Source: Octopus vulgaris (Eukaryota). From it: a DNA stretch of 64,000 bases. Both the position numbers and the translations under genes were made by a program. Under the pieces are notes generated by a model, which was given only the letters and a program-made list of their open reading frames with translations, did no database searches and had not been told where the DNA came from. Below are positions 3,126-60,984 of the stretch, piece after piece. The stretch is taken from assembly GCA_951406725.2 (NCBI GenBank), contig OX597816.1, positions 18,414,001 through 18,478,000 on the forward strand, read 5' to 3'. Within the stretch, counting starts at the first letter, position 1, and each line of letters opens with the position of its first letter.

Positions 3126-4179
3126 AAGAACGAACTTAAGTCAAGTCAATGATAATAACATAAAGGACGATGACGATTAGAAGATTAATAACCATGATGT
3201 TAATGGTGGTGATTACAAATCTTGCAACAAAGTAATCAATTTTAGAAGAGAAGTTAAATTGATAACAACACAAGTGTTCAACTGGTAATACATTGTTGAC
3301 CCCGAAAATATGAGTGGCAAAGGTGACCTCAGCTAGATTTGAACACGTACCCGGAAGAACCGAAAGAATTGCTTGTAAATATTTTTTCCAAGGGGATAAC
3401 AATTTGGCTAGCATACCAGCTTATTACTTTAAGAGTAATAATGATGAGGACACTGATGATAATGATAAAACAAGATATTCTATAATCTGGCACGGAATCA
3501 TTAATTATATAAGCAAGTATATAAACATTTCTCTTCAGTTTTTGTCGTATTAGCTTAGGGAGACTGAATGATCAAAGATGAGATAAGAAAAGCAAACTTT
3601 GTACTCTAATATTTCAGGGAAATATATTATCTCCTTTACACTTTTGTATAATTTTATTTGGTTCCATCTACAAATTTACAAACTGAGATAATTCAAAAGC
3701 TATGAATTCACTCCCTCTCCCTCCCTCTATCTCTCTCTGTCCCTCTCTCACACAAACTCACACACACACATGCACACATACAGTGCTTCAAAGTTGTGCA
3801 TATTTATATACATGTATGTATGCATGTCTGTCTGTCTGACTGCCTGTCTATCTATGTATCTGTACCCCACGCCCCCACGCACATATGTATATATATGTGT
3901 ATATATAAAACTGTGTTTGCGTATCTATCTATCATATATATATATACACACATACATGTATGTGTGTGTGTGTGTCTGATTGTAAAGGTGGGTGGGTGTG
4001 CTTCGTCTACTGTTTCCGGGAGATTACCGTCCCTGCTAGCATGTGTGTATGAAATTATGTGCTTTGACTGCAGTATTAAAGCGCTACAACTCTTATTTCT
4101 AAAATACCACCACGTGGACTCTATTGAGACTAGTAAGAAACAACTATGAACTTTTTTATTACGCTTAACTTTTAAAAAT

Positions 4180-4227
4180 ATTTTTGATAAGGTTCGTTGT
4201 TTCAAGAAGAACCGAAACTTGTAAAAT
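4180..4227 (+). ncRNA. Minimal type I hammerhead ribozyme motif, U3-A8 variant
   Basis: attt-TTGATAA-ggttc(13-nt loop)gaacc-GAAA-cttg-TA-aaat: stems I and II pair, GUA triplet, about 75 nt upstream of (TA)n at 4303. Confidence 0.6.
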
Positions 4228-4829
4228 CTCTAAGAAAATATGACAATTATAGTTTTCCTTGTTGGTAAAACATTGTACACCGCTACCGCTGACTATATTA
4301 ATGATATATATATATATATATATATATACACATTTATGTACACGCACAAACACGTAAATAATAATTAAAATCTATGTCACTTTTGTACCGATATAAAACT
4401 ATTTACAAGGGATAATGGCCTGTCAGTACGCTACACGTAAATTAAATCTTTTGGCGTTGAGAGAACTAATTGTGACAAGGAAGATCCAGAACTGAATCAC
4501 AAACCATGTCACGTAACAGGATTCGAAGCACGACAAGATAAAACAAAATATCTGTTTGACACAACCAATACCCTATAGACATGCAGCCCACACGAAAATG
4601 AACAAAATCAACAAGCAAGAAATAACACATATTGCCTATAACCAACAACGAAATATTAAATGAAACAGAAATATAAATATACACGATTCCAAGCAAATCA
4701 GATGCTGAATACAAATGCTATACAAGACCACCAAAATACAAAATTATCCTAATCTTTGGATCATACTTAGTGTTTCCGTTAAAAAGGTGCTTGAAACAGA
4801 CAGAAAGCACGATAATAATGATAATATTC

Positions 4830-5160
4830 CTTTCCACTAAAGCCACAAAGCCTTAAATTTCGTGGAAGGGACTGAAAGATTACATTGATCACAGTGTTTC
4901 AGTGGTATTTAATTTATCGACCTCGAAAAGATGAAAGGTTAAGTCCACCTCGGCGAAACTTGAACTCAAAACATAAAGATGGATGAAATGCCGCCAAGCA
5001 TTTTACCCGGCACGCAAACGATTCGGCGAGCTCGCCGCCTTGAATATAAGAATAATGATAATATTGGTTTCAAATTTTGCCACAAGTGCAACAATTATGT
5101 ACTGTGTTTCACTAGTACTTAATTTATCGACCCTGAAAGGATGAAAGGCAAAGTCGACTA
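4830..5160 (-). mobile_element. Decayed SINE family A copies
   Basis: Two copies of the core TTTATCGACC..GAAA.GATGAAAGG and a reverse-complement head near 5020-5040. Confidence 0.75.
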
Positions 5161-5635
5161 TTAATACTATAATTTTATAAATTATGTGTATTATCATACT
5201 TTCGTTTATAGGGAAATTTAGTAAAAGGCAACGAAACGCTTGATACGAATTAAAATCGCTAATATGTGAAGATTCTAAAAATGAATTGGTTAAGGAATAA
5301 TTCTCAATCATATTTGCTTCAATGATATATTGGATTCGTAAAATTGTCCCATTTATTCCCTGGGATTTAGAACCGTTCATAAAATATTTCGACAATACTA
5401 AATAATCAATTTAATTCATCAAATTAACGTTGCCCTGTTCCTATAAAAAAAATCCTAGTTGAAGTGATATATCGTTTGTCATATAAAATATATACCTTGG
5501 TTTTAAGAATTCTCAAAAGAACAATAGTATTCGGATTTTCATAACCTTTATAGGATAAGATCGTTAATTTAAATTAAATAACGATCTTATCAAATAGCCA
5601 GCATGGAAATAAAAACCTTCAAAGGTATTAATTTT

Positions 5636-5878
5636 TATACAAATTATAACTTAGGGCATCTACGAGTTACCACCATGCTGAAAATAACAGCCAGGATCTG
5701 ACTGCAAACCCAGAAATCCGGGATCTGGAATTATCCAGGAATTTTTTACTAGTTTTATTTTGTCTTTTTGTCTTCTCTCCTTGTGCTAAATGAACACTTA
5801 AGGTGGTTATAGAGTCAGATCCTGGCTGGTATTTTCAGCACGGCGTTATCTCGTAGATAACCTAAGTTATAATTGTAT
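5636..5878. mobile_element. Inverted-repeat element abutting (TA)n
   Basis: Arms 5636-5703 and 5813-5878 are imperfect reverse complements; (TA)n follows at 5877-5939. Confidence 0.7.
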
Positions 5879-57800: not shown

Positions 57801-59384
57801 TAACAAGACGTATGAAGACTTAAGATTCTGCGTTTGCCACAACTTTCGGGGTCGATTAAATTCAAGTACCGAGGTGACTTTGCCATTCAATCCTTTCGGG
57901 GTCGATTATAAGTTAAACGACTGTGTCTGTCTGTTTGTCTACATACATACATATCAATCAGACTATTAGTCATCTACATCTACTGACATCTATCATCTAT
58001 CACATGCACATACCATCATTTCAATACGATATAATAGGAATATTGTCTGTCTTCTCCTGAATTGTCTTCCTCTTGTTTTAACCCCTCTGGACAATAAAGA
58101 AATAGATATAAAAATAAGGAACATATCAGATATATCATTAAAATGTACCTGACAAATGTGGATTGTGTATGGTTGGAATGTCATGCACATCCCATCATTG
58201 TTGAAAGATACGATTTATAGGAATATTGTATGTACTGAATAATCAAAACCTTTTCTTTTTCTTCTATTTCATGATGTAATGGAAACAATACGAGAAATGA
58301 AATGTTAGTGAAATGAAATATTTCCTTCGCATGATTCTCTCGATATATCACATATATTGTACGGCGCAGGAATGAAAATTCTTTTTTATTATTATTATTA
58401 TTCGATCAATTATTGGATATATTATGATTATTATTAATCTAACCCTATTTTCAGAATATATCTAACCACGTATGAGTATGCTTATATAAAAAAAGAACCA
58501 ATCCAGTTTGTTTTCGTATTATAGATAGCCATTTAACGAGGAAAGAAAACTATCGTTTTCGAGTCGTATATCTCATGCGACATATAATATTAGTTTCAGG
58601 GTAGGAATTCTAGATTAATCCAGCGATCATCATCGGAGATGATGTACTAGTTTCCATCCGTAAATGACAAGAGAAACAAATAATTCATATCAATACAATC
58701 ACACTTCTCATGCATTTTCAGTGACATCACTGCACTATGGAAAATGCATTGCTTAAACAAATTCGTGACTTCATGAGCAATGTGAATTGTATTGGGACAA
58801 AAATGCATTTTCGGAAGAAAACATCTCTTCTAAAACGCTAAGTATTTAACCATCGTAAGGTGTCTTGTTGAATAGTGTTGATCCTCAGTGACGTAGAGAT
58901 CGACATGAATACCTCAATCGTTGTCACAGTGAAAACATAATGGGGTGGGGGTGGGGGTGGGTGAATTGCTTCACTTTGTCCAATTCCGTTTCAAAGTATT
59001 TAGCTAAAACAAAATATTATATTCTTATATTTATATATAAATATATGCATTCAATAAATACTATTGTATAGAAACATGATAATAAATTTTGCAAACTAGC
59101 GACGCACTGGCCCAAAAATACTGTATATTCATACATATATACATATACATATATATATATATATATATATATATATATATATATATATATATATATATAT
59201 ATATATAATGAATATTAGGGAATAAATCCAAATTTACAGGAAAAAATCAGATTTAGGATTAAATCCAATTTTATAGTAAAATATTATATAATATTAATTC
59301 GAGACAAAACCACTATTTTGCAAATCAAACAAGGAAATACTTAATCAATACATAAAAAAATTTTAATATAAAGTAAATAAACCG

Positions 59385-59428
59385 CCACTACAATTGTTTC
59401 ATGTATTCAAATGACATTCGTCAGGTGG
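59385..59428 (-). ncRNA. Minimal type I hammerhead ribozyme motif
   Basis: ccac-CTGACGA-atgtc..tacat-GAAA-caattg-TA-gtgg. Confidence 0.82.
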
Positions 59429-59511
59429 ATTTCCGATCTTCTAATCAGTTTTAATTTATGAAGTCATAAATTAAAACTTCATAAATTAAAACTGATTAGA
59501 AGATCGGAAAT

Positions 59512-59554
59512 CCACCTGACGAATGTCATTTGAAGACATGAAACAATTGTAGTG
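59512..59554 (+). ncRNA. Minimal type I hammerhead ribozyme motif
   Basis: cac-CTGACGA-atgtc(atttgaa)gacat-GAAA-caattg-TA-gtg; palindromic stem III and GUA triplet. Confidence 0.85.
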
Positions 59555-60984
59555 TTTATTTACTTTATATTAAAATTTTTTATGTATTGATTAAGTCTTT
59601 CCTTGTTTGATTTGCAAAATAGTGGTTTTGTCTCGAATTAATATTATATATATATATATATATATATATATATGGCCTGCTCGCTTCAAAGGCTAAAACA
59701 ACAACAAACAATACGTATATATATAGGCTCTGGGATTGAACTTGCACAAAGTAGATGTAGGGGTTTTGAAATCAAAGCTGGACCTCTTCCTGTCGAGAGT
59801 CCCAGATGAACCTACCACACGGCAAGAGGTGCAAAATGAGGGTAGCTATATCAAACTCCAGTCTTCACCAAGTGTCACATATTAGAAGAGGCTCTTAGTA
59901 ATAACAGTGTAGCAAAACGGCGGTACATCAGCATGGCCACAGCTCTGAGCTGAAACTAGAGAGAACAAAATATACATACATACGTGTGTGTTTGTGTATG
60001 TGTGTGCGTGTACATGTATGTAATATATATTCTAAACAAGTTAAAGACCGCCTTTTCATGTTTGTGTTTTAAGCAAATGTCTGCGTTGTTACTGTTAAAT
60101 GATGTGTTATTAAAACCCCCCAAACAGGGTCACATTGTAAATTGCTCAGGCTGCCCCTGTGCATATGGTTAATGCTCCCTTACTGTTCATTTACTTAGTT
60201 AGATTCCTCGTAAAAATTCATTAGTTATAGCTGGCAATAAATTAATTGGAACTATTTCATAGATGGTAATTAAATTTCTATTGATTTGCAAAAACACTGA
60301 TTGATAATCTATCAACTGGACGTTGAATAATAACATCTTCTATTATAAACAGAATAGTTAAACTCAAGGGGCTAATTTAGAGAACTTTTGAGGTAAAGTA
60401 AACGAGCTAAACTTTCGACTGAACCAATAAATACACTGCGGTTATTAGATCGGTCATTCGGTCCACTATTCATTTTACAATCTAATTAAATTGAAGATGG
60501 TATTGTATCGAACAGTTGCTTCAATTATTTCTCTCTTATATTTTTAACAATTTAGTATATAATGATTAATATTCCTATAGTTAATATAATATTCTGTTAT
60601 ATAAAGAAACAATGCTGCCGTGTTTTATGTATCAAACGAAGATATAAAGGAGCTGTATGTTATTGATTCCAACATAAAAGATGCAATTATTTTTGATATT
60701 GCAGTATTTATTTTTTTATGTGGCATATTATTAAACTGGTTGTTCTTTTTGTAACTGAAATTGTTCCCTACATCAGTATATTGTAAATAGCCGCATACAG
60801 TGTAGTGATGAAATATCCATACCGAATCCTTTAGTTCCGTTTGGGAAAATACTAGTAGTAAAATAGTATCGGGTAAAATTTTGTCAAATAGAAACTGCCT
60901 CATGTTTACCTTTTTAAGCAACTCGTATTCACATGTTTTGATATCGAAGCCACAATCATTTCTATGTTGGTAATATGTTATGCA

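What the first reader, a model, noticed from the sequence alone, without database searches (positions are those of the whole stretch)
4100..59650. A multi-family, (TA)n-targeted, hammerhead-bearing non-coding retroelement system
Seen: at least six sequence-unrelated non-coding elements in 64 kb carry a minimal type I hammerhead fold (4180, 15014 x3, 15581, 21359, 28886/46582/54760, 59385/59512). All lie in or beside TA-rich tracts. In the inverted ones the ribozyme-sense strands always diverge from the centre, so both sense 3' ends face the flanks. At 4180, 46582 and 54760 the sense 3' end also meets the TA tract. Established: Penelope-like element pLTRs and animal retrozymes carry minimal hammerheads with very short palindromic stem III that are thought to act as dimers, and PLE insertions often have inverted 5'-truncated copies. 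Inference: a diverse set of non-autonomous ribozyme RNAs is mobilised by a PLE RT/GIY-YIG enzyme that primes both ends of a break in (TA)n. No PLE ORF is present in this window.
Basis: partly seen in the sequence, partly recalled or inferred. Interest (0 to 1): 0.85.

Follow-up and report, generated by a model that had tools for sequence, protein, structure and literature searches.

The report
Penelope-type hammerhead repeats in TA tracts
Six unrelated short repeats in this animal DNA carry hammerhead-shaped, likely self-cutting RNA motifs and mostly end at TA microsatellites; they are likely leftovers of Penelope-like jumping genes, a known kind, and two are protein-free tandem units whose insertion shape suggests they borrowed the Penelope enzyme.

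Summary
The motifs are real. A descriptor finds 10 of the 11 named hammerhead sites and nothing else, against means of 0-0.3 hits in shuffles and decoy motifs. All 4 inverted insertions are head-to-head, and 11 of 14 element ends abut TA runs, against 0 of 30 ends of control repeats. No Penelope ORF remnant is in the window.

The reading needs splitting. Families B (13525-15352; 557-nt unit) and C (15412-16064; 364-nt unit) are ORF-less, highly structured tandem units, i.e. retrozyme-type. They are inserted with Penelope anatomy: partial tandem, inverted arm, and two 3' ends 88 and 57 nt apart. B is very high-copy, and its unit junction recurs in four public runs. A, D, E and F are ~190-nt stubs that cannot be told from solo pseudo-LTRs of ordinary coding Penelope-like elements (PLEs). 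The E-type motif follows a PLE endonuclease remnant in 9 of 97 loci from other animals.

Almost every ingredient is published. The modest new point is insertion-anatomy evidence that PLE enzymes move retrozymes. Cleavage, expression and the enzyme are untested.

The parts
4180..4227 (+). Family A hammerhead motif: U3:A8 core, 5-bp helix II, helix III ACUUGU (one central mismatch); single copy in window
4304..4327 (.). (TA)n tract 80 nt after the predicted A cut site; the element end is assumed here, not shown
13431..13520 (.). (TA)n tract at the left 3' end of B
13525..14598 (-). Family B left arm, about 1.9 copies of the 557/558-nt unit; ends 88 nt short of the right arm's end point
13715..13766 (-). 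B hammerhead copy 1 (CUGAUGA core, U.U at base of helix II, helix III ACGUACGU, H17=U)
14272..14323 (-). B hammerhead copy 2, 557 nt from copy 1 on the same strand
14596..15352 (+). Family B right arm, about 1.36 units; overlaps the left arm by 3 nt at 14596-14598
15017..15068 (+). B hammerhead copy 3
15353..15411 (.). (TA)n tract shared by the right end of B and the left end of C
15412..15872 (-). Family C left arm, 1.27 copies of a 364-nt structured unit
15573..15632 (-). C hammerhead: U3:A8 core, 4-bp G-C helix II, helix III ACGCGU, helix I 6 bp + internal loop + 7 bp; predicted cut after 15587
15878..16064 (+). Family C right arm (0.5 unit, no hammerhead); runs 57 nt past the left arm's end point and ends at a short TA run
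21113..21512 (.). Family D head-to-head palindrome, arms 88% alike; motif on + at 21362-21401 (A9C, 1-nt insert, 6-bp helix II), decayed copy on - near 21215-21250
28821..29008 (+). Family E copy 1; motif 28886-28921 with A6U core; TA tract at its 5' end
46492..46690 (-). Family E copy 2; decayed motif 46582-46617 (A6U, helix III AUGU), not found by the descriptor
54660..54858 (-). Family E copy 3 (75% over 83 nt to copy 1); intact core at 54788, helix I only 2 bp; 3' end at the TA tract
59291..59644 (.). Family F head-to-head palindrome, arms 96% alike; motifs on - 59385-59428 and on + 59513-59554 (helix III ACAAUUGU)
59645..59672 (.). (TA)n tract at the right 3' end of F

Best explanation
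These are eight insertions of six unrelated hammerhead-motif repeats that were likely all made by Penelope-like (PLE) reverse transcriptase/GIY-YIG proteins encoded elsewhere in the genome: B and C are ORF-less tandem units of 557 and 364 nt (retrozyme-type, likely moved in trans), while A, D, E and F are ~190-nt stubs that are likely solo or inverted pseudo-LTR ends of PLEs. Shown: motifs, unit sizes, head-to-head arms, staggered 3' ends at TA runs, no ORF. Inferred mechanism: the enzyme cuts both strands in a TA run. Each 3'-OH primes reverse transcription at an internal site downstream of the hammerhead on uncleaved, more-than-unit RNA. The two cDNAs stop early and are joined at their far ends (3-nt overlap in B), which leaves both sense 3' ends facing the flanks. 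Use of two different start sites gives the 88- and 57-nt 'tails'. The hammerheads would cut as dimers through the palindromic helix III, releasing unit-length RNA; many copies are probably dead.
For: Motif excess over shuffles and decoys. Features listed for PLE hammerheads in PMC4209133: U3-A8 core (A, C), insert between 9 and 10.1 (D, E), palindromic 15.2-16.2, opposite-strand pairs 100-700 bp apart. The predicted C dimer is a double hammerhead with intermolecular helix III. Tandem units and staggered ends. B: 4113, 2680, 545 and 164 contigs laid in four runs; the unit junction is seen in all four with varied letters; 0 of 40 listed variant places fall in 35 core/stem positions and 3 in loop II (P about 0.07). 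Whole units fold at z -7.8 (C) and -6.8 (B). Twelve family-majority letters improve B's fold (-152.5 against -148.5 kcal/mol; 1 of 60 random sets as good). Cut-site-to-3'-end distance is 80-114 nt in A, D, E, F (E2 is 94 when read), against 85-92 nt for the anole PLE (PMC11167929). The E-type motif in 97 loci of other animals: H17 never G; helix I of 3+ bp in 48 of 79 contexts against 2 of 79 when slid; PLE endonuclease remnant upstream on the same strand in 9 of 97.
Against: No PLE ORF is linked to any of these families here, and no genome is held. In one search almost no B contig ran on into unlike sequence (share 0 in three runs), though short contigs hide such joins. Nine of 10 isolated motifs do not fold better than shuffles. 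D, E1 and E2 have core changes, and B and F lack the G10.1-C11.1 pair. Of 29 B variants mapped on the fold, 8 break a pair, 11 keep it and 10 are unpaired; 18 variant rows were not shown. Tails (57, 88 nt) are longer than the published 30-40 nt. TA adjacency is also seen for palindromes without a hammerhead, and 0 of 86 foreign E-type loci had (TA)5 within 300 nt downstream, so TA targeting is not a property of the motif. 74 of those 97 loci fall in one cluster.
Confidence: 0.75

Rival explanations
1. One reading: all six families, including A, D, E and F, are independent non-coding ribozyme RNAs moved in trans.
For: The three dispersed E copies share about the same 5' boundary, which suggests a defined short transcript. 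No ORF remnant lies near any copy.
Against: A, D and F occur once and extend under 100 nt upstream of the motif where defined (D, F), so no unit can be defined. Most copies of coding PLEs are also ORF-less stubs (PMC4209133; 9 of 97 with ORF remnant).
Confidence: 0.15
2. B and C are retrozymes, but they are moved by another reverse transcriptase (a LINE, such as the decayed non-LTR element at 33.7-38.6 kb), with inversions from twin priming.
For: Non-LTR RT remnants lie in the window beside (TTA)n tracts. PMC7229834 names LINEs or PLEs as candidates.
Against: Both arms overlap in content and each ends at a TA run at a different internal site; this is the PLE tail/inversion pattern (PMC8557442). 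No poly-A tail. The window's RT remnants sit by TTA, not TA, repeats.
Confidence: 0.07
3. The palindromes are MITE/foldback DNA transposons at TA sites, or assembly foldback artefacts, and the motifs are chance.
For: A MITE-like palindrome with TA|CAGTG ends is at 12366-12465 (the Tc1/mariner end motif is recalled). B's arms are 99.8% alike. No contig spanning B's central junction was tested.
Against: Motif counts far exceed shuffles and decoys. B and C arms end at different unit positions and are tandem inside. D and F arms have diverged (88%, 96%). B's unit junction recurs in four runs.
Confidence: 0.03

Closest known systems
Minimal hammerheads in pseudo-LTRs of metazoan PLEs (Cervera & de la Pena 2014, PMC4209133)
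   Same: Type I fold, palindromic short helix III, U3-A8 variant, insert after A9, several unrelated families per genome, mostly solo copies, opposite-strand pairs 100-700 bp apart.
   Different: No linked ORF shown here. B has U.U and F has A-U at the base of helix II; D (A9C) and E1/E2 (A6U) have other core changes.
Non-LTR retrozymes of animals (PMC7229834; Li, Clavereau & Pollet 2026, 10.64898/2026.07.22.740005)
   Same: ORF-less, self-paired tandem units with a type I hammerhead. C has an extended helix I and a 1-bp helix III with palindromic tetraloop, as in axolotl HHR_Amex1. B has the U.U of HHR_Amex2. A PLE origin is already proposed.
   Different: B and C are inserted as head-to-head partial tandems with staggered 3' ends in (TA)n; I did not see this described in the parts read. 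Circular RNA is not shown. C has only one hammerhead at this locus.
Endonuclease-bearing PLE insertions (Neptune/Nematis/Naiad; non-autonomous Chlamys such as MRC1; Craig et al. 2021, PMC8557442)
   Same: Partial tandems, inverted 5'-truncated copy, one-sided tail, (TA)n bias; non-autonomous pLTR-forming families are known.
   Different: No ORF; tails of 57 and 88 nt rather than 30-40; the partner clade is unknown.
Poseidon_Ac in vitro (Frangieh et al. 2024, PMC11167929)
   Same: Cuts and extends both strands of AT-rich DNA; starts internally about 85-92 nt after the hammerhead cut site; uses uncleaved RNA.
   Different: Its hammerhead overlaps an ORF start; B and C ends lie 175-288 nt after the cut site.

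Membership tests
PLE-type minimal hammerhead | Core CUGANGA...GAAA or the U3-A8 variant | tested here: met
   Met in A, B x3, C, E3, F x2 (8 of 11 sites); D, E1 and E2 deviate by one base
PLE-type minimal hammerhead | Palindromic positions 15.2-16.2 | tested here: met
   Perfect in B, C, E1, E3, F; one central mismatch in A and D; not in E2
PLE-type minimal hammerhead | Unpaired base after A9 and G10.1-C11.1 pair | tested here: inconclusive
   Insert in D and E only; G-C in A, C, D, E; not in B or F
PLE-type minimal hammerhead | Conserved across genomic copies | tested here: inconclusive
   B only: 0 of 40 listed variants in 35 constrained places, P about 0.07, 18 rows unseen
PLE-type minimal hammerhead | Self-cleavage as dimer | not testable with these tools
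   Only predicted dimer folds
Autonomous EN+ Penelope-like element | RT + GIY-YIG ORF between pLTRs | tested here: not met
   A 146-protein PLE profile has no hit in the window (best iE 0.35) but hits 10 of 97 foreign loci
PLE-type insertion | Partial tandem forming a pLTR | tested here: met
   B and C; not definable for A, D, E, F
PLE-type insertion | Inverted 5'-truncated copy at the 5' end | tested here: met
   4 of 4 inverted insertions are head-to-head
PLE-type insertion | One-sided 30-40-nt tail | tested here: inconclusive
   One-sided extensions are present but longer: 88 nt (B), 57 nt (C)
PLE-type insertion | (TA)n target bias | tested here: met
   11 of 14 ends against 0 of 30 control ends; one window only
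Non-LTR retrozyme | ORF-less tandem unit of a few hundred nt with a type I hammerhead | tested here: met
   B 557/558 nt, C 364 nt; longest ATG frames 68-82 aa (B) and 21 aa (C); no Pfam hit in the frames scanned
Non-LTR retrozyme | Two consecutive units each with a complete hammerhead (Li 2026 criterion) | tested here: inconclusive
   Met in B's left arm; not met at the C locus
Non-LTR retrozyme | Highly self-paired RNA | tested here: met
   z -7.78 (C) and -6.83 (B), 0 of 100 shuffles as good
Non-LTR retrozyme | Expressed as linear and circular unit-length RNA | not testable with these tools
   Only contigs available; no holder on record as RNA
TIR DNA transposon / MITE | Matching termini around a core, TA duplication | tested here: not met
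   B and C ends lie at different unit positions and the arms are tandem inside; D and F alone cannot exclude it

The most novel reading that the evidence does not exclude
B and C are true animal retrozymes caught with the full Penelope integration footprint (two-ended priming in TA repeats, inverted more-than-unit copies, staggered start sites). That would be direct structural evidence for the open proposal that PLE enzymes mobilise retrozymes. If this window is typical (8 insertions in 64 kb), this genome would carry one of the densest hammerhead loads known in an animal.
Probability: 0.5. Interest if true: 0.5.

Novelty: new member of a known kind. Interest (0 to 1): 0.32.

Why it matters
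Which enzyme moves animal retrozymes is an open question. The published support is co-occurrence and sequence kinship with PLE ends. Two unrelated retrozyme-type units with PLE-specific insertion anatomy give a ready test: short, young, abundant RNAs to offer to a PLE protein in the existing in vitro assay. It also suggests that abundant 'unknown' or SINE-labelled repeats in such genomes may be hammerhead retroelements. Otherwise the finding restates known PLE biology.

Tried and rejected
No whole genome is held, so no genome-wide family, flank or ORF-adjacency count was possible. Rfam showed no hammerhead family among the 150 of 225 rows listed; these were microsatellite and hairpin look-alikes of miRNA models. 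A canonical descriptor found 1 site only. A 23-nt B pattern had no match in metagenome or prokaryote contigs. The E-type pattern had none in viral contigs. No RNA holder listed; X15 is only guessed to be RNA and is not used for expression. Depth is not a copy number, and the depth step near B's right-end site may reflect variability. No tRNA gene was found, so there is no support for a tRNA-headed SINE like Sm-alpha. Pfam missed even the foreign PLE endonuclease, so the Pfam scan of 141 frames is a weak test; the custom profile replaced it. Circle versus linear template: B's arms share an A5-then-A6 order of units, a 1-in-3 coincidence and error-prone, so only a hint at a linear multimer. C's three differences fit later mutation and are uninformative. 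The protein search on the window's RT remnant named only cnidarian and shrimp relatives; the host is not identified. Earlier-findings look-ups by place and sequence were empty. Lunse et al. (PMC5785218) was not held; its dimer result is taken from a review passage.
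Full report
Setting. The window is AT-rich animal DNA (GC 25-41%) with 58 TA tracts of 8+ units. No genome is held. The host is not identified. Relatives of its RT remnant are named from cnidarians and shrimp. My guess of an octopus rests on recalled SINE families and comes from no call. If it is right, Octopus vulgaris has 30 recently active Penelope families with 329 insertions (PMC13282606), so the enzyme would be available.

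Are the motifs real? A canonical descriptor found only 59385. After inspecting the candidates I allowed the U3:A8 core, a 1-nt insert or U.U at the base of helix II, and required a palindromic helix III. This gave 6, 7, 9 and 10 hits at four stringencies, all at named sites (10 of 11; 46582 is never found). Sixty block shuffles gave means of 0-0.28. Because shuffles destroy hairpins, I also ran 150 decoy cores on the real window: means 0-0.32, maximum 4. Against: only C folds better than shuffles alone (z -3.85); the other 9 do not. D has A9C; E1 and E2 have A6U. Rfam listed no hammerhead in the 150 of 225 rows shown.

Anatomy. The six families share no blastn similarity beyond chance-level words. 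B (13525-15352) is a 557/558-nt unit: 1.9 copies on the minus strand and 1.36 on the plus, head-to-head with a 3-nt overlap, with 3' ends at two unit positions 88 nt apart, each at a long TA tract. C (15412-16064) is a 364-nt unit: 1.27 and 0.5 copies, ends 57 nt apart. Its one hammerhead has an extended helix I at the tip of a long rod. Both units close on themselves without an ORF and fold at z -7.8 and -6.8. D and F are simple head-to-head palindromes. E is three dispersed ~190-nt copies with about the same 5' boundary. A is single. Sense strands diverge in 4 of 4 inverted insertions.

TA targeting. Eleven of 14 homology-defined ends abut (TA)3+, against 0 of 30 ends of two SINE-like families and a 2.2% background. 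Ends were partly set by eye on a masked self-comparison. TA is not part of units B and C, whose internal junctions continue without it, so it is target rather than tail (inference). But palindromes without a hammerhead also sit at TA, and 0 of 86 foreign E-type loci have (TA)5 within 300 nt downstream.

Other copies. One unit-length stretch of B was laid on four public runs of contigs: 4113, 2680, 545 and 164 contigs, from three species labels. The unit's wrap-around junction is in all four runs with varied letters, so the unit is a family trait. None of the 40 listed variant places falls in the 35 core and stem positions and 3 fall in the 17-nt loop II (P about 0.07; 18 rows unseen). I mapped 29 of the 40, those with larger shares, on the predicted fold: 10 unpaired, 11 keep, 8 break, with one double change that keeps a pair. 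The 12 majority letters lower the energy from -148.5 to -152.5; random sets gave -140.6 +/- 5.7, and 1 of 60 was as good. This is modest support for selection on RNA structure. A, C, D, E and F were not tested in other runs.

Link to PLEs. The E-type pattern, which specifies neither helix I nor H17, matched 97 metagenome contigs, in 11 clusters, 74 in one. H17 was C 84, U 11, A 2, G 0; helix I of 3+ bp formed in 48 of 79 distinct contexts against 2 of 79 when slid. A profile of 146 PLE proteins (134 with CxxCxxC) hit 10 of the 97 loci, 9 upstream on the same strand, 7-640 nt before the motif (86 loci had 300+ nt upstream, 17 only short flanks). It found nothing in the window. These are other families sharing only the motif, so this shows what E works like, not its parent. 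It also shows that lacking an ORF nearby does not make a stub non-autonomous.

Mechanism. Shown in print: PLE insertions form partial tandems with an inverted 5'-truncated copy and a one-sided tail, with (TA)n bias in some clades (PMC8557442). An anole PLE protein cuts and extends both strands of AT-rich DNA, starts internally at two sites that define the tail, 85-92 nt and more after the hammerhead cut, and uses uncleaved RNA (PMC11167929). Here the cut-to-end distance is 80-114 nt for A, D, E, F and 175-288 nt for B, C. Inferred: the same two-ended priming made these insertions; B and C RNA was copied in trans from more-than-unit templates; the hammerheads cut as dimers. The predicted C dimer is a double hammerhead. 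Whether the template was circular is open.

Novelty. Known: abundant, diverse, mostly solo minimal hammerheads, opposite-strand pairs and U3-A8 (PMC4209133); non-autonomous PLEs (PMC8557442); retrozymes with PLEs as candidate movers (PMC7229834); PLE origin of retrozymes (Li 2026). I did not find retrozyme insertions described with inverted, staggered ends in (TA)n, or hammerheads surveyed in cephalopods, in searches and the find. Seen: PMC4209133 parts 1-2 of 4, PMC11167929 parts 1-2 of 4, Li 2026 parts 1-3 of 5, PMC13282606 parts 1-2 of 3; passages only of PMC8557442, PMC7229834, PMC6765202 and PMC8967140. No supplements were read, and those of the preprint are closed. These supplements and external repeat libraries may already list these families. 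Earlier scan notes report similar stubs (e1-7788996) and a TA-targeted retrozyme-like unit (e1-7810660) in other genomes; they are leads, not support.

Verdict. The feature is real and is a set of new members of a known kind. Interest 0.32.

Noticed in passing
window 33669-35219 and 36662-38600 (- strand): Two decayed copies (70% alike) of a non-LTR retrotransposon, with an RVT_1 hit at 37232-37639, beside (TTA)n tracts near 35725-35800 and 38715-38830. The Dong/R4 label is recalled, not tested.
   Followed up: partly
window 16723-17089 and 17856-18222, inside a 1133-nt tandem duplication 16231-18501: Old palindrome (arms about 75% alike) with split hammerhead-like remnants (a CUGAAGA core and, about 55 nt on, GAA followed by an 8-nt palindrome); possibly a decayed seventh family.
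   Followed up: partly
window 54250-54454, 5642-5874, 41489-41566, 47386-47743: Palindromes without a hammerhead motif, the first three beside TA runs; they may be PLE-type arms cut short of the motif, or MITEs.
   Followed up: no
window 12366-12465, related pieces near 9634-9864: MITE-like palindrome with TA|CAGTG ends (Tc1/mariner-like end is recalled).
   Followed up: no
window 2018, 6731, 23657, 25727, 27760, 32783, 50264, 51109, 60985: SINE-like family with a 45-nt head and 1-3 tandem 185-nt units at 9 or more loci; none of its 18 ends abuts TA; no hammerhead hit.
   Followed up: partly
window 8268, 31512, 42574, 43682, 44423, 48396: Second SINE-like family with an internal microsatellite; it resembles octopus SINEs as recalled.
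   Followed up: no
window about 21308-21320; L009, L019, L020, L034: An AAAATGGC or AAGATGGCG-like motif at D's 5' start and about 25 nt before the hammerhead in four foreign loci; YY1-like promoter element by recall.
   Followed up: no
L019:2079-3627 (-): Frameshifted PLE (RT, CxxCxxC linker, GIY-YIG-like domain) ending about 675 nt before an E-type hammerhead with H17=U.
   Followed up: yes
L001-L097: By a rough 14-mer test, 32 of 88 foreign E-type loci have an inverted copy upstream (head-to-head) and 2 downstream.
   Followed up: partly
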